From the NCBI GenBank assembly GCA_963664875.1, contig OY761611.1:3392001-3456000 (forward strand): DNA of 64,000 nucleotides, in the 5' to 3' direction. Below, piece by piece: positions 33,001-45,000 of the stretch (position 1 is the first letter of the stretch; the number at the start of each line of letters is the position of its first letter). The position numbers are program-made. The stretch is from Candidatus Kapaibacterium sp. (lineage in GTDB: Bacteria > Bacteroidota > Ignavibacteria > Kapaibacteriales > UBA2268).

Positions 33001-36000
33001 TAGTAGCACTTAAGGACTACAAACCTAACGTAAGACTGTGCAAAGGGATATACAATGAAGCTCCTGAGATAGCTTATAAAGATTTCCATGAAATTAGGAA
33101 TAATTACAAAAAATTATTTCATTATATGGCAGATAATAGCTTTTTTGTCGGCGTTGCAACTCACGACGATTATCTAATCGATTTTGCAGAATCCGAGATA
33201 AAGAAAAGAGCCATGACAGAAAAAGACTATGAGTTTCAGATGTTGCTTGGTGTCAAAGAAAATAAGAGGAATGAGTTGCTTACGAAAGGTCATAATGTAA
33301 GAATTTACGTTCCGTTTGGAGAAGATTGGTATGGATATTCAATCCGCAGGCTCAAAGAAAATCCTAAAATGGCAGGGCATATTGCTAAATCTATTTTTTC
33401 GTTCAATGGTTAATAATATCAGCATCCTAATCCTTATTCTTTTTTTTGTGGCATGTCAGAGACCTGAGCAGCCCAAACAGGCTGAGAGTAAGGCAACAAA
33501 ATCTGAGCAGGCTAATCAGGAGATTACTTTCGATGATGACGATATTTGTGTAGCTACTTTTAATATTGCATGGCTTGGCGACGGTAAAAATGACAGGTTA
33601 GACAGAGAGGAAGAAGATTACAAAAATATTGCTGATGTTATTGGTCAGGTAGAAGCTGATTTTATTGCTTTACAAGAAATTGAAAATGATGAAGCTATCA
33701 AAAGAGTTCTGGCGTATTTGCCTCAATATGATTACTTTATCGATGACTCCGGCTCGCAAAATGTCGGAATAATTTTCAGCAAAGAGTTGGAAGTAGAAGT
33801 CCTTGATATATATACTCCTCTACTTACAGGCAATAAAAGATTACGTCCAGGGCTCTGGGCAAGAGTAAAAAAAGGCAATTTTGACTTTTATGCAATGGTT
33901 GTACATTTCAAATCTACTTCAAGGTTTGACGAAGGAGAGGAAGGCAAAGAAAGGAGTAGAGGCATTCGCAAAAAGCAGGCTGAGATAATAAATAAGTGGG
34001 CTGATTCCTTATTGACTAACGGAAAAGAGCAGGATTTGATAATACTTGGTGATTTTAATGATTCTCCTTTGAAAAAGCGATATAACACATTAAACAGGAT
34101 AAATTCCAAGAAACTTGAATTTATCACTGCTGACTTACAAAGTTGCAAATTCGAAAAATTAAAAGGTATTGACCACTTACTCGTTACTGCGAGTGCCAAG
34201 CAAAGACTAATTCCGAAAAGCATTGGAATTTATAATTTGCATAAAGCATACAAAAAAAAGATAGCCCCTCAAATATCTGACCATTGCCCTGTTTTTGCAA
34301 GGTTTGATATAAAAAAAGAGGATAATGATTAGGCTTTGGAAAAAATTTTGCTTATATTTTCTATTTTTTTGTTAATTTCACATTATTGGATTCAAAAGAA
34401 ACAGAAGGTTACTCATGAAAGGGAAAGGTAGAATCGTAAAAGAAGTAAAAGAGAAATATATTCTCTTAAAACTTGAAGGTTCTTTCAATAGTTACGAACA
34501 CGACGAAGAAATCAGAGAAACGTTCAGAGAAATTTCGAAAGAAGAGCCCGTCAATGTGATTGTGGATTTCAAAGAAGTATTTTACTTCAACTCCACAGCT
34601 ATACGTGGTTTGCTTTCCGGAAATGCTTTTATTAAAAGAGCAGAGGGCAGAATCATATTCTGCAATCTGAGCGATTATATTGCAAATATTTTCAAGATTA
34701 CAAACCTGCATCTTACTTTCAAAATTTTGGACAGTTTGGAAGACGCAGAATTTGAACTTGAAAATCCGACAGAAGACTAACTATATTTGACATTTATAAA
34801 AAAGCTACCCCAAAGGTAGCTTTTTTTACTTAGTAGTTGTAATAGTTCGGCTGATTTCAGGCGCATATAAAAAAAGCTCCGATACTTCATTGCTTAAATA
34901 TCGGAGCAAACATCATATAAGGAAATATTGAAACGCTATTTGAAATATGTATAATAAAAATCATATCGTTTTTGAATGGCACCTTTAGAATCCGAAATAA
35001 TTTCGGCTTTGAGTTTTCCGGTGGTGTCATAAATGTATGAGTATATTTTGTTTACATTGCCATTCTGATCTATTTTATAAAACTTTATAGATTGATCTGC
35101 AGAATAAACAATACTGTCTTTTAGTACATTTGCATTAGGAATGTTGTCGCCTGTGACTATAATATCATAAGATATCCCTGTCAAATTGCCCGAAGTATTA
35201 TATTCGTTGTTGTAGTTTTTGATAGTAGATACACCTTTCTTCAAGTCTTCCTGTACGGTTTTGATTAAATCACCCTTTTGGTTGTAATCGAAACTCCAGC
35301 TTTCTTCAAGCTCACCATCGCTGTCGTATTGCTTTTTCTCAACTATCTTCGAATTAGTGTATCGATACTTGATCTTGAAATTTTCAGATACAAAGCCGTT
35401 GTTGTCATATTTAAAGTGAATTTCAGTAGATTGGTCGTCTTGGTATGTGTAAACAGATTTTGTAGCTGTGTCTGCATCTTTGTTAAACTCTACAAAAAGC
35501 AGGATATTGCCGGCTTTGTCAAATTCTTTGTAATATACTTTGTGTTCTTTAGATAAAGTGAGCAAATCAGATTCCCACTTCTCTTCACTTTGTATAACAT
35601 CCGGAGTGTACGCAGGATTTATCGGATTGTCCGGCATATTACATGCTGCTAATAAACACACAGCACACACAAAAATACTATTTAATATTTGTTTACTCAT
35701 AACTGTTCCCGGCTTGAAACATTTGATAAGAAATTACGTAAAATCTTTATAAATGTCAAGTTAAATATACATACGAGTCAAATATTTTTATATTTCCTGC
35801 AATCTTATATATTAATGTCGAAATCATCTGCATTGAAACCGTAATTTTCTATCCAGTATTCTTTAGTAAAAGTTATTTTCCCGGAATTTAATAAATCAAG
35901 ATCGCGTTTCCAAATACTCGCCATATTGCTGTTTAACCTGATAATTGAAAAAATAGGCTGAGCAATATCTCCAAAATTTAGATGTATTAGCATTACTATC

Positions 36001-42000: not shown

Positions 42001-45000
42001 TATCTTTAACTTTAGCGAGAAGAGTATCATTTCTGCGAGCAAGTCGCGCTACCCAGCCATAAGCCGGTGAGTCAGTTTTGGGATGTCCTTTGACTATCGG
42101 AGCAAGAAAAGCATCGCTACTTTCCGTCCGTGAATTGTAAGCATAAGCGATAGCATCTAAGCTGCCTGCGTTATACTCTTTAGTGTTGCCGGCAGAGTCA
42201 GTATGCCGACCGGTTTTAAAAACTTCTATCCACATAAATATGTACCTTGTAAATGATAAAAAATGAGCTGCAGCTTTTATTTCAAATACAAAGTACATTT
42301 TACTCAGACTATAAAAAGAAAAGCATTTTTAAAATATTTTATAAACCATTTAAAAAATAAATAGTGAGCAAATCAAAATATTAAGTATAATATTTAATAC
42401 AATACGAACACAAGAGTTGTAAATTTGTACTATAGAAGATAGATAATCACTTAGTAATTTGTTGCAAAAAAGAGCCTGAAAGGCTCAAAGCAAATAGCAA
42501 AAGTCTTATTGCAAAGAATAAAAAAAATTCCCCTCTTGAGCGATGTGCTGAGCGAGCACAGCGAGTCGAAGTAGGGTGCCCTGAAAGGGCGGGGTGGAAA
42601 AGAACCTTATATCTACCACTACTCTAAAAAATATATCGCCGAAGTTATTTATATAGAAAACATACTGCATACTCTGAAAATTTGTGCTTCGTGTGTTTCC
42701 ACCCCGCCTCACCTTCGGTGAGCCACCCCTCAAGAGGGGAATGGTGAGGGTTTTGGCTCAAAATATTAGAGAAAGAGCCTGAAAGGCTCAAAACAATTAG
42801 CCCGGGGCAGCGCCCCGGGAAAAGAAACGTCCACACCCTCGTTTTCTATACCGAGCTAAGCGAGGTGAGTGGCGAAAACAAAAACTAAAACTAAAACTAA
42901 ACATAGGAAATCTAAACCATGAAACAACTTATACTATTTATCTTACTCGTGCCGGTGCTGCTAAATGCCGAACTCTATGAAGGCTCTGACTCATTAAAGC
43001 CTAAAAAGGAATATACATATAAAGCAAAAGGTGGTTTAGATATTGACCCTAATCTACTTGAGGACTTAATTCCTGACGACCCTCGAATAAAGTTTGCTAC
43101 TTATTTCTGTGGTTCAGGTGGAGATGCTGTTATGGATTTACAAATTGACTCTGAAGGAAATATATTAGCTATTGGAAATACTATGAGTGACGATTTGCCA
43201 ATGGTTGGTAACTCTTTTGCCACTGATAAAGGAATTTGGATAGATGCTTTTATTGTCAAATTTGACACGTTGGGTTTCCCTATTTGGAGTACATATTTTG
43301 GAGGCAAAGGAGAAGACAGAGGTATTAGATTAGAAGTAGATTCGAAGGATAATATTATTATTGCAGGCGCTACTAATTCTGCAAATTTTCCTCTAAAAGG
43401 AGAATTTGACCAAGACAGTATAAAAGGCGAAGCTGATATTTACATAGCAAAATTTGATAAAGACGGAAACTTGCTTTGGAGTAGATTGTTTGGTGGCAGT
43501 GGATTAGATCAGTCTTTTGGTCTTGCAATTGATGCTGATGATAACATATATGTTGCCGGTAATACTATGAGTACAGATATTGTCAGAAGCGACTGGACTT
43601 ACCAGCCTGAATATGCTTATTATTATAAAAATTTTGCAACATATTCTGATGGAGTGTTTGCAAAATTCAGTCCAAGTGGCAAACATATTTGGTCAAGTTA
43701 TTTGGGTGCTGGAGAAACAGAACACTTAGAAGACATCGATGTTTATAATGATGAAATTACTGTTGTAGGCAGAGTTTCTGCAAATTTTGCACATCCTAAA
43801 ATTAATCCAAGATATATTCGCGGAACTGAAGACGCTATTCAACAAGTACCTTGTGATACATTTTATTATGAAAACTACACACCTTACGATCCATTTATAG
43901 CAAAATTTTCAACCGACAGTTGTAAGCTTAAATACTTTACGTATTACTGTACTGAGGCTAAAAGATTTAATCCAAGTGATAATTATTATTATTTTTCCGA
44001 TTATGATGCAAGAGGCAACTATATATTAGTAATTAATGCTGACAACTTCATGCAAGTCAAAGGTTCTCCTTTTAAGACATATAACGAAAAAGAAATTGGA
44101 GGGGTTATGATGCTTTCTCTTAGTCAAGAAAATATAGCCAATTGGGATTGGGACATTTGTGCTGGACGTGGATTTACAGATGTAGCTTTTCATATTGATA
44201 ATAATATTTTTTGGGGGGATGTCACAGCATACAAAGATCTCTTTCCGGAAGATGATAGACATATTAATAATAGAGAAAGTGCTATTCAAAGATCACCTTT
44301 GTTTATGAGATTTGACTTAAAAAACTACACTCAATGGTATTCTTACCATCCTCACTTTAATGCAGATTCTAAACTTATATCAAAAGATAATATTGTTTAC
44401 CTTATGGCGAGATCCCATGATTACCATATTCTTAAAAATGCTTATTCAGAACAATATTATCCTTATTCTTTATATTTTATGAATTTTGATATGAGAGAAG
44501 ATTTTGGTTACTCAAGTATTGAGACAGGGACTAATTATAGCTCAAATATCTATGTTTATCCTACAATAGCTATGGAATCTATCACTATATCCTCAGAGGA
44601 TTCCATAAATCAAATTCAAATCTATGATTTACTCGGTAAGCAATTATATTCACAAGATTTGAAACTCCCATTAAACGAGTTAGAAATAAATGTAGAGAAC
44701 TATGCAGACGGAATGTACTTCATTCTGTTAAATAATAAATACTTTTTTAAATTTATTAAGGAGTAAAACTTCCCCTCTTGAGGGGTGCGTGAGCGAAGCG
44801 AGGGCGGGGTGGAAAAGAACCTTATATCTACCACTACTCTAAAAAATATATCGCCGAAGTTATTTATATAGAAAACATACTGCATACTCTGAAAATTTGT
44901 GCTTCGTGTGTTTCCACCCCGCCTCACCTTCGGTGAGCCATAGCTCGAGAGGGGAATGATCAGCTAAGGTCACTGCATCTCGACTCATTTTATTCGCTCG

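What a model noticed while it worked through the whole genome (the two positions that open the first line are those of the whole stretch)
34936..42298. Mu-like head, portal and terminase genes kept across a whole family: a candidate gene-transfer-agent-like element
An 11-gene cluster encodes only phage head parts: protease, major head, decoration, head-tail adaptor, a fibre-like protein, portal and small unknowns. The matching large terminase stands alone at C1:3745611-3747038, 312 kb away among housekeeping genes. Orthologues of head, portal and terminase are found in nearly every genus of the family, with the terminase likewise unlinked, but hardly at all in sister families. So this is not a casual prophage but an ancestral capture that has been kept, most likely as a DNA-packaging particle.
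Evidence so far: - Families: calls 75, 92, 110, 117. The flanks and the TerL neighbours are cellular. - Major head protein: 13/13 other family genomes against 3/67 genomes in other families of the order. - Family sample of 40 other genera: head 37/40, portal 39/40, TerL 36/40. - Identity 45-58%, 40-53% and 43-50%, against 46-64% for the neighbouring cellular Pro_dh. - TerL lies 106 kb to 1.39 Mb from head-portal in the complete genomes G493, G492 and G486. The pieces are arranged differently in G121, G146, G035 and G065. - A tail-fibre family sits at the variable position (phrog_4492, E 9e-11, call 133). - Nearest phages are Mu-like, at 42.6%. No close relative in IMG/VR.
(Added by a program. 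Inside this text positions count along the whole contig: contig position 3,392,001 is position 1 of the stretch shown here. "Call 12" and the like, gene names such as g00115 and contig names such as C1 are that model's own, and its searches are not shown. The text may have been shortened before it was handed on; [...] marks where a part breaks off. The agent that wrote the report below was given it as the finding of a first reader that could run no searches.)

Follow-up and report, generated by a model that had tools for sequence, protein, structure and literature searches.

The report
Family-wide phage head-and-lysis gene set
A bacterial family has kept, in nearly every genus, a cut-down set of phage genes that can build and fill a virus head and probably burst the cell but has no tail, so it looks like a domesticated DNA-packaging particle whose delivery step is unknown.

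Summary
Window 35805-42298 (minus strand) carries ten co-directional phage-derived genes, and the only large terminase of the 3.83-Mb genome stands alone 312 kb away.

In a sample of 120 other genomes of the family:
- Head protein was found in 108, portal in 111 and terminase in 111 (51-52 of 55 genera).
- Outside the family the head protein was found in 4 of 124 genomes of the order and 4 of 294 of the phylum.

The genes look maintained. Frames are almost always intact, the terminase ATPase and nuclease residues are invariant, and dN/dS was 0.05-0.29 wherever it could be computed.

New here:
- Three of the "small unknowns" look like a lysis cassette: a three-helix membrane protein, a secreted CHAP peptidase with invariant Cys/His, and a bitopic membrane protein. 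The same trio lies contiguous in a true 27-kb phage contig.
- The terminase is still linked to the cluster in at least seven genomes, in three different arrangements.

No tail, small terminase, Mu F, neck, integrase or transposase gene was found.

Long-term retention is supported, but strict co-divergence with the host is rejected. "Gene transfer agent" remains an inference, because there is no delivery device and no expression or particle data.

The parts
42236..42365 (-). Leader and promoter block of about 130 bp upstream of the protease start. It includes the palindrome GCTGCAGC.
   Evidence: This is the only part of the upstream region that aligns among the four genomes of the genus; further upstream the sequences are unrelated. 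Promoter function is inferred.
41390..42235 (-). Head maturation protease fused to a short scaffold-like C-terminal part (281 aa; the ORF is open up to 42298).
   Evidence: phrog_976, 4.8e-54. Met22, H72, S117 and H128 are invariant in 20 sequences. It is shorter than the 503-aa homologue in phage contig L121.
40430..41374 (-). Major head protein (314 aa).
   Evidence: phrog_1005, 3.9e-83. Found in 108 of 120 other family genomes.
40076..40417 (-). Cement or decoration protein (113 aa).
   Evidence: PF09956, 6.9e-10. Present in 21 of 21 loci in the same position.
39616..40065 (-). Mu gp36-type head-tail adaptor (149 aa).
   Evidence: PF07030, 2.9e-14; phrog_195, 4.5e-17. Present in 19 of 21 loci.
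39318..39659 (-). Holin-like small membrane protein (about 100 aa, three hydrophobic helices).
   Evidence: Alignment A5: E57, E68, G97 and H99 invariant. Three hydrophobic segments in 16 of 19 members, two merged ones in the other 3. It always lies directly upstream of the CHAP gene. The holin role is inferred from topology and position; no family match.
38461..39030 (-). Secreted CHAP-type peptidoglycan peptidase (189 aa), the candidate endolysin.
   Evidence: PF05257 at E<=0.01 in 16 of 19 orthologues; the window's own copy scores 25.1 bits against a cut-off of 26. C71, H132 and E134 are invariant. N-terminal hydrophobic segment in 15 of 19. Found in 107 of 120 family genomes.
38118..38495 (-). 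Small jelly-roll protein (about 117 aa; the listed ORF runs to 38636, and orthologues start near 38468-38495).
   Evidence: AlphaFold2 model with pLDDT 90.9, eight strands. Foldseek against BFVD gives 38 matches at E<=1e-3, almost all uncharacterised phage proteins. The best PDB match has E 2.4e-3; matches include phage cement proteins and YomS. Present in 17 of 21 loci.
37364..38116 (-). Fibre-like protein (250 aa) at the variable position.
   Evidence: Fibre and virion PHROGs match residues 31-89 only. A homologue is present in 9 of 21 loci, with only the N-terminal 50-130 residues conserved outside the genus.
36933..37367 (-). Membrane protein (144 aa) with an N-terminal helix, DTII repeats and a hydrophobic C-terminus. 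Candidate lysis accessory.
   Evidence: Alignment A3. N-terminal hydrophobic segment in 16 of 16 members; the C-terminal one passes the threshold in 6 of 16. The nearest Atlas clusters are viral hypothetical proteins, score 0.95. Present in 18 of 21 loci.
35805..36932 (-). Mu-type portal, C-terminally short (375 aa).
   Evidence: PF06074, 6.9e-87. Found in 111 of 120 family genomes. Orthologue frames are 316-400 aa, against 465-540 aa in prophage copies.
34936..35700 (-). Lipoprotein with YD-like repeats (254 aa). It is co-transcribed by position but genus-specific, so its membership is doubtful.
   Evidence: Lipobox read from the translation. No family match. Homologues were found only in the 3 same-genus loci.
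34876..34907 (-). Terminator-like hairpin (12-bp stem plus a T run) that closes the unit.
   Evidence: This is a consensus scan only.

Best explanation
The cluster, together with the unlinked large terminase, is the reduced and host-retained descendant of a tailed phage with a Mu-type head.

Proposed mechanism:
1. The protease-scaffold, major head protein and portal assemble a procapsid, and the cement protein decorates it.
2. The terminase, whose ATPase and nuclease centres are intact and which has no recognisable small subunit, fills the head with DNA. This is probably whatever cellular DNA is at hand.
3. The gp36 adaptor closes or caps the portal.
4. The three-helix membrane protein, the secreted CHAP peptidase and the bitopic membrane protein open the envelope and release the particles.
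5. In some genera a fibre and a small jelly-roll protein are added.

The particle would be tail-less.

Shown here: the gene content, its distribution, intact frames, conserved catalytic residues, purifying selection, descent from a phage that carries the same cassette, and the absence of tail, replication and integration genes.

Inferred: that particles are made, that they hold DNA, that lysis releases them, and any transfer to other cells.
For: Content: families; ten gene families in one order across 21 loci from 15 genera.

Distribution:
- In 120 other family genomes: MCP 108, TerL 111, portal 111, CHAP 107.
- Outside the family: 4 of 124 genomes in the order and 4 of 294 in the phylum, at 26-43% identity.

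Function kept:
- TerL Walker A (P60-P61-R62-x-G64-K65-S66), Walker B (D157-D158), T198-R199-W200 and nuclease D314, D443 and D446 are invariant in 18 sequences.
- CHAP C71 and H132 are invariant in 19 sequences.
- dN/dS was 0.045-0.289 in all 50 of 105 within-genus gene pairs where dS could be computed. The other 55 were saturated in dS, with dN of 0.10-0.66.
- Of ten portal rows flagged with stops, six were re-examined and only two stops are internal.

Retention after dispersal:
- TerL lies 107 kb to 1.39 Mb from the heads in complete genomes.
- It is within 6 kb in at least seven genomes, in three arrangements.

Origin: phage contig L121 carries protease-MCP-cement-gp36 ... 3TM-CHAP-orf144-like ... 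tape measure.

Losses:
- No sheath, Baseplate_J, Mu F or tape measure in the genome.
- No homologue of the tail modules of two related phages.

Inheritance:
- The genus clades and one deep clade (g4, g7, g51) are shared with RpoB.
- The RpoB topology fits the element better than all 30 genus-permuted topologies.
Against: - No tail, nozzle, stopper or small terminase was found, so DNA retention and delivery are unexplained.
- The holin and spanin-like roles rest on topology and position only.
- The RpoB topology is rejected against the element's own best tree (delta lnL 189, p-AU 5e-7).
- With one genome per genus, the distance correlation is weak (r 0.32; 456 of 5000 permutations reach it). 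Transfers between genera are therefore not excluded.
- In the closest pair (G101-G085), dS of the element genes is 1.5-2.9 against 0.45 for rpoB.
- Decay does occur:
  - portal broken in G008 and G106
  - TerL truncated in G118
  - CHAP and portal fragmentary in G018
  - CHAP not found in 13 of 120 genomes
  - none of MCP, portal and TerL found in G026, G048, G056 and G111
  - only prophage-type copies in G002 and G083
- Cellular flanks are not conserved even within the genus, although synteny in general is fragmented there.
Confidence: 0.5

Rival explanations
1. Anti-phage or satellite-like parasite of phage tails. The heads do not work alone. During infection by related Mu-head phages they capture the phage's tails through the gp36 adaptor, or compete for assembly, and the cassette lyses the cell early. 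This would lower phage yield and perhaps send host DNA out in chimeric particles.
For: - A head-tail adaptor is kept in 19 of 21 loci although no tail is encoded.
- Related tailed prophages and phages with the same CHAP family occur in the family.
- Tail-less capsids that later join foreign tails are documented for cf-PICIs (abstract of 10.1101/2025.02.11.637232).
Against: - No PADLOC family matches any of the 13 proteins tested.
- No regulator or sensor gene lies in the cluster.
- The adaptor-position ORF of the same-genus prophage gave no tblastn hit in G000 at E<=1e-4.
- Second, prophage-type head copies were seen in only about 13 of 120 genomes (hand count).
Confidence: 0.2
2. A cryptic prophage remnant with no present function, surviving by chance or by hitch-hiking.
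For: - The tail, small terminase, Mu F and neck genes are gone.
- Some copies are broken.
- There are no expression data.
Against: - A remnant would not keep ten genes plus an unlinked terminase open in about 100 of 120 genomes across 51-52 genera.
- It would not keep invariant catalytic residues.
- It would not show dN/dS of 0.29 or less.
- It would not keep the terminase after separation by up to 1.39 Mb.
Confidence: 0.1
3. A still mobile element (phage or satellite) that spreads horizontally within the family, so that the wide distribution reflects infection and not inheritance.
For: - The host topology is rejected.
- Flanks differ within the genus.
- Short IMG/VR contigs carry the element.
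Against: - No integrase, transposase (PF02914 not found, though its control was silent), replication or regulatory gene lies in or beside the cluster.
- There is one orthologous copy per genome.
- The terminase is unlinked in most genomes.
- Genus clades are recovered with support of 100 in every gene tree.
Confidence: 0.05

Closest known systems
Gene transfer agents (RcGTA type, BaGTA, VSH-1, Dd1, VTA; the recently described FpGTA of Faecalibacterium)
   Same: - A phage-derived structural gene set fixed in the host chromosome, without replication or integration genes.
- Kept across a host clade.
- Genes split over distant loci. FpGTA has two operons about 125 kb apart (passages of PMC12946183).
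- A lysis function is needed for release.
   Different: - Every described GTA has a tail. None was found here.
- No small terminase was recognised.
- The head is Mu-type.
- The host is a Bacteroidota family. The passages I read of PMC12946183 list GTAs studied mainly in Alphaproteobacteria, plus a few other groups.
- No packaging or transfer data exist.
Capsid-forming PICIs (cf-PICIs)
   Same: They encode heads, packaging genes and connectors but no tails, and they release tail-less DNA-filled capsids (abstract of 10.1101/2025.02.11.637232).
   Different: cf-PICIs are mobile satellites with integrase, replication and regulation genes and a small terminase (recalled, not tested here). This element has none of these, carries its own lysis-type cassette, is single-copy and family-wide, and has its terminase scattered.
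Mu-like / BcepMu-like phages (phiE255) and the uncultured phage contig L121
   Same: - The protease-MCP-cement(DUF2190)-gp36 block is collinear.
- MCP is 42-43% identical.
- L121 also carries the 3TM-CHAP-orf144 trio: CHAP 43%, 3TM 31%, orf144-like 28%.
   Different: - The phages also have TerS-TerL-portal-MuF-Neck1, tail genes and a tape measure or sheath.
- Their portals are about 490 aa and the L121 protease-scaffold is 503 aa.
- The element's terminase does not match L121's terminase at E<=1e-3.
- The portal-to-terminase order is reversed.

Membership tests
Gene transfer agent (viriform) | Phage-derived structural genes in the host chromosome without replication, integration or lysogeny genes | tested here: met
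   no such family in the cluster or within about 10 kb on either side; no other gene family recurs beside the cluster in 21 loci.
Gene transfer agent (viriform) | Kept across a host clade by descent and under purifying selection | tested here: inconclusive
   - Presence in 51-52 of 55 genera.
- dN/dS of 0.29 or less where computable.
- Genus clades and one deep clade agree with RpoB.
- But the RpoB topology is rejected (p-AU 5e-7), and the one-per-genus Mantel test is not significant (456 of 5000).
Gene transfer agent (viriform) | A complete particle with a tail or other delivery device | tested here: not met
   - No Phage_sheath_1, Baseplate_J or tape measure (phrog_58) in the genome.
- No homologue of the tail genes of two related phages.
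Gene transfer agent (viriform) | Packages random host DNA in pieces too small to carry its own genes, and transfers them | not testable with these tools
   No RNA or particle data are available. The one sequencing-run search is reported under Tried and rejected.
Mu-type head module | Portal_Mu, Mu gp36, Mu-type protease and major head families | tested here: met
   PF06074 6.9e-87, PF07030 2.9e-14, phrog_976 4.8e-54, phrog_1005 3.9e-83.
Mu-like transposable phage | Mu F head protein, DDE transposase, contractile tail | tested here: not met
   PF04233, PF02914 and PF04984 were not found in the genome. The PF02914 control rang in no control genome, so that negative is weak.
Capsid-forming PICI | A mobile island with integrase, replication module, regulators and small terminase beside the head genes | tested here: not met
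   None of these is in or beside the cluster. phrog_6299 TerS was not found, although its control was silent. The defining list itself is recalled, apart from what the abstract states.
Phage lysis cassette (holin, endolysin, spanin) | A small multi-pass membrane protein next to a muralytic enzyme, plus an envelope-spanning accessory protein | tested here: inconclusive
   - CHAP domain with an invariant Cys and His and an N-terminal hydrophobic segment.
- A three-helix protein directly upstream.
- A bitopic protein nearby, and the trio is contiguous in phage L121.
- No holin or spanin family matched, and the orf144 alignment shows no conserved cysteine for a lipobox.

The most novel reading that the evidence does not exclude
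This is a host-fixed, head-only viriform. The family makes tail-less, DNA-filled Mu-type capsids from chromosomal genes, releases them with its own lysis cassette, and relies on tails shed by phages of the family (or on uptake of capsid-protected DNA) for delivery. It would be the first GTA-like system in Bacteroidota and a chromosomal, non-mobile counterpart of cf-PICI capsids.
Probability: 0.2. Interest if true: 0.9.

Novelty: new variant of a known kind. Interest (0 to 1): 0.7.

Why it matters
Few gene-transfer-agent-like systems are known, and the well-studied ones are mostly in Alphaproteobacteria. A family-wide, selection-maintained head-plus-lysis set without any tail would widen the idea of what a domesticated phage can be.

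It would also make a concrete question testable: can tail-less capsids encoded by the host move or protect DNA? The group concerned consists mostly of uncultured bacteria.

The finding also gives annotators a marker set that should not be called a prophage.

Tried and rejected
- Expression: no RNA holder was listed for the 7.4-kb stretch. Read laying was not used, because only contigs of DNA runs were on offer.
- Profile searches against PDB sequences: the jelly-roll protein gave 5 rows at E 0.26-0.43 (nothing usable), and CHAP gave 0 rows at E<=0.01.
- PHROG scans of all members of the orf144 and 3TM alignments gave only 1-2 members matching nameless families.
- Atlas: the 3TM protein scored 0.79 at best, which is a lead only.
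- PADLOC matched none of 13 proteins. NCBIfam matched only the terminase and the GT2 neighbour.
- A single-protein scan of genome contigs returned only 6 loci.
- YN00 dN/dS failed for nearly all pairs, so NG86 was used.
- Three of five planned single-clade AU tests did not finish in time. They were replaced by whole-topology tests.
- I looked for a motif shared by the region upstream of the protease and the region upstream of TerL in the four genomes of the genus. I saw none by eye, so co-regulation is not supported.
- Encapsulin was considered and rejected, because a portal and a terminase are present.
- Literature: five searches found nothing on this element. A sixth search located the cf-PICI papers. 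Supplementary files of papers were not consulted.

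
Full report
WHAT IS THERE

The window is G000:C1:3392001-3456000 of a single-contig genome of 3,827,814 bp. 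Eleven minus-strand ORFs fill 34936-42298. Family matches:
- head maturation protease: phrog_976, 4.8e-54
- major head protein: phrog_1005, 3.9e-83
- cement protein: PF09956, 6.9e-10
- Mu gp36 adaptor: PF07030, 2.9e-14
- fibre-like protein: three PHROGs at 1.8e-7 to 4.8e-6, residues 31-89 only
- Mu-type portal: PF06074, 6.9e-87

The flanks are cellular: Pro_dh, an Exo_endo_phos protein and a STAS protein on one side, and three T9SS-CTD proteins on the other.

A block of about 130 bp upstream of the true protease start (Met22, window 42235) is the only upstream sequence shared by the four genomes of the genus. A strong terminator-like hairpin follows the last ORF at 34907-34876.

THE TERMINASE

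The genome's only real large terminase lies at C1:3745611-3747038, 312 kb away. It sits between a GT2 glycosyltransferase and a class IV aminotransferase. The second weak Terminase_6N hit is an SF1 helicase.

THE 'SMALL UNKNOWNS'

I fetched about 10 kb on each side of the head gene in 20 genomes of 15 genera and clustered all ORFs. Ten families recur in one order (number of the 21 loci, window included, that hold each):
- protease: 20
- MCP: 21
- cement: 21
- gp36: 19
- a protein of about 100 aa: 19
- a protein of about 195 aa: 20
- a protein of about 117 aa: 17
- the fibre: 9
- a protein of about 145 aa: 18
- portal: 18

No other family recurs beside them.

What these proteins look like:
- The 100-aa protein has three hydrophobic helices in 16 of 19 members (two merged ones in the other 3) and invariant E57, E68, G97 and H99.
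- The 195-aa protein matches CHAP in 16 of 19 members. It has invariant C71, H132 and E134 and an N-terminal hydrophobic segment in 15 of 19.
- The 145-aa protein has an N-terminal helix in 16 of 16 members and a hydrophobic C-terminus that passes my threshold in 6 of 16.
- The 117-aa protein folds with pLDDT 90.9 into an eight-stranded jelly roll. That fold is shared with many uncharacterised phage proteins: 38 BFVD matches at E<=1e-3, while the best PDB match reaches only E 2.4e-3.

I read the first three as a holin-like protein, a secreted endolysin and a lysis accessory protein. The enzyme assignment rests on family and residues. The other two rest on topology and position only (searches found no named family).

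The eleventh ORF (34936-35700) is a lipoprotein by its lipobox. It has homologues only in the three same-genus loci, and I do not count it as part of the ancestral element.

DISTRIBUTION

| Query | Other family genomes with a match | Genera (own genus included) |
|---|---|---|
| Head protein | 108 of 120 | 51 of 55 |
| Terminase | 111 of 120 | 52 of 55 |
| Portal (E<=1e-20) | 111 of 120 | 52 of 55 |
| CHAP profile (E<=1e-15) | 107 of 120 | 51 of 55 |

- By my hand count, 99 genomes have a near-full-length head protein at 45% identity or more.
- None of head protein, portal and terminase was found in G026, G048, G056 and G111 (the last is 76% complete).
- G002 and G083 have only prophage-type copies at 29-36%.
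- In the order, the head protein was found in 70 of 76 genomes of the family and in 4 of 124 genomes of the ten other families, at 31-37% identity.
- In a phylum sample it was found in 6 of 6 family genomes and 4 of 294 others.
- Two record titles among relatives read 'Candidatus Kapaibacterium sp.' and 'Ignavibacteriota bacterium'. The family's name is not established here.

ARRANGEMENT

In complete genomes, the distance from the terminase to the head gene is:
- G032: 107 kb
- G031: 270 kb
- G092: 934 kb
- G025: 1.39 Mb

In G112 it is 1.69 Mb, or about 0.97 Mb the other way round if the contig is a circle.

The terminase is nevertheless still within 6 kb of the cluster in at least seven sampled genomes, in three arrangements:
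- directly after the portal: G047, G003, G063
- after the jelly-roll gene: G024, G067
- upstream of the protease: G103, G091

The third arrangement also occurs in the short IMG/VR contig L115.

In same-genus G101, the head cluster sits beside homologues of the two genes that flank the terminase in G000. The set therefore began as one cluster and has been pulled apart repeatedly while its parts stayed open.

Cellular flanks are not conserved even within the genus. However, the neighbouring genes of those loci map all over the G000 chromosome, so synteny is poor in general.

INHERITANCE

- Trees of MCP, portal, terminase and an eight-gene concatenate all recover the three multi-genome genera with support of 100. 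The concatenate also shares the clade (g4, g7, g51) with RpoB.
- Holding g13 and g19 together is not rejected (p-AU 0.47).
- The full RpoB topology fits the element far better than 10 label-permuted trees (delta lnL 3666-5157) and better than all 30 trees in which only genera were permuted. The figures are 189 against 261-341 below the best tree.
- The RpoB topology is itself rejected against the element's best tree (p-AU 5e-7).
- Pairwise distances correlate over all genomes (r 0.78; 0 of 5000 permutations reach it). With one genome per genus they do not correlate significantly (r 0.32; 456 of 5000).
- The host tree is a single-gene tree with several weak forks.

My reading is descent within genera, and mostly descent with unresolved or partly conflicting history between genera.

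SELECTION AND INTEGRITY

- NG86 dS was saturated in 55 of 105 within-genus gene pairs. In the other 50, dN/dS was 0.045-0.289 for every gene, the small ones included, against 0.037-0.050 for rpoB.
- In the closest pair (G101-G085), dS of the element genes is 1.5-2.9 against 0.45 for rpoB. I cannot explain this.
- The terminase Walker A, Walker B and TRW motifs and three nuclease aspartates are invariant in 18 sequences.
- Ten portal rows were flagged with in-frame stops. I re-aligned six.
  - Two are truly internal: G008 at position 246 and G106 at position 64.
  - Four are not internal: G114, G082, G120, G090.
  - One more (G118) is the natural stop of a short portal.
  - Three were not examined: G013, G058, G119.
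- The G008 terminase stop lies before the start, and the G091 head-protein stop is not internal.
- Real decay: the G118 terminase is truncated (431-aa frame, 3 TAA), and G018 has only fragments of CHAP and portal.

WHAT IS MISSING

- The genome has no Phage_sheath_1, Baseplate_J, Mu F or tape-measure match.
- It has no match to the small-terminase PHROG of the nearest phage or to the Mu transposase domain. The controls of those two searches were silent, so they are weak negatives.
- Of the ORFs of a prophage of about 39 kb in same-genus G085, only cement, MCP, protease and portal hit G000.
- Of 22 ORFs of phage contig L121, only portal, protease, MCP, cement, CHAP and the orf144-like protein hit it.

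ANCESTRY

- The nearest named phages are BcepMu-like, with MCP at 42.6%. Their order is TerS-TerL-portal-MuF-Neck1-protease-MCP-DUF2190-gp36-...-sheath.
- IMG/VR holds short contigs that are pieces of the element itself (L115, L116, L123).
- It also holds a 27-kb phage contig, L121. One strand carries TerS-TerL-portal(487 aa)-MuF-Neck1.
- The other strand of L121 carries protease(503 aa)-MCP-cement-gp36, two ORFs, the 3TM protein, CHAP, the orf144-like protein, a fibre or decoration protein and a tape measure.
- The lysis-type trio is therefore ancestral and contiguous in a real phage.
- Compared with that phage, the element has lost the small terminase, Mu F, Neck1, the two post-adaptor ORFs and all tail genes.
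- It has also shortened the portal (316-400 aa against 465-540 aa) and the scaffold part of the protease.
- Its terminase does not match L121's terminase.

HOW IT MOST LIKELY WORKS

Heads are assembled, filled by a terminase that works without a sequence-specific partner, capped by the adaptor and released by lysis. None of these steps is observed; they follow from what the families are known to do.

Why a host would keep this is open. Options are gene transfer with borrowed tails, for which cf-PICI capsids are a precedent (abstract), protection or release of DNA, or interference with infecting phages.

COMPARISON AND NOVELTY

It shares the logic of gene transfer agents but fails one defining feature that I could test, a delivery device. 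It shares tail-lessness with cf-PICIs but is not a mobile island. The passages I read of PMC12946183 list the GTAs studied so far, mostly in Alphaproteobacteria, and describe a compact two-operon element in Faecalibacterium.

Five full-text searches found nothing on this element. Papers outside that library and supplementary files were not seen.

LIMITS

- There are no expression, particle or transfer data.
- The host tree rests on one gene.
- dS is saturated.
- Most relatives are draft metagenome-assembled genomes.
- Hand counts from long tables may be off by one or two.

Noticed in passing
G000:C1:3744543-3745523 (outside the window; L003:8543-9523, minus strand): A GT2 glycosyltransferase with a TPR part lies head-to-head with the terminase in G000. 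It does so too in 7 of 18 further TerL loci, belonging to three genera that are not sisters in the RpoB tree (g1, g13, g42). Identity between genera is 37-43%. It may be an old neighbour or an unrecognised partner gene.
   Followed up: partly
Family genomes G019, G065, G077, G035, G014; genus g7 (G006, G057, G084); In five genomes the terminase match comes in two pieces inside one open frame of 510-555 aa, which suggests an insertion between about residues 211 and 217. In genus g7 only an N-terminal ATPase-half ORF of about 205-222 aa matches at 44-49%, with a 31-33% C-terminal half elsewhere.
   Followed up: no
window 42472-42486, 42775-42789 and 42801-42819: The hairpin GAGCCTTTCAGGCTC occurs twice, about 300 bp apart, next to a GC-rich hairpin. 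All three lie in the 620-bp spacer between the cluster and the T9SS-CTD gene, and this stretch is absent from the other three genomes of the genus.
   Followed up: no
window 39031-39317: In G000 there is a 287-nt gap between the holin-like gene and the CHAP gene. The three same-genus genomes have only about 27-100 nt there. No ORF of 50 aa or more lies wholly within the gap on either strand.
   Followed up: no
window 45073-46404 and 46790-48121: Two tandem genes of 443 aa each have the same beta-propeller plus T9SS C-terminal sorting domain architecture. This is probably a recent duplication.
   Followed up: no
G000:C1:835753-838437 (L002:52-2736): The genome's second Terminase_6N hit (E 4.3e-4) is an SF1 helicase (AAA_11/AAA_12), not a terminase.
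   Followed up: yes
Pair G101-G085: Synonymous divergence of the element genes is 1.5-2.9, which is 3-6 times that of rpoB (0.45) in the same pair of genomes. Codon-usage constraint on rpoB, or exchange of the element between species, could explain it.
   Followed up: no
window 18238-24144, minus strand: An ORF of 1968 aa, overlapped at its start by a 552-aa ORF (23892-25550). Neither was examined.
   Followed up: no
G060 and G086 (genus g11): The head and portal genes lie only about 1.6 kb apart and no CHAP match was found. In this genus the lysis-type cassette seems to have been deleted while the heads were kept.
   Followed up: no
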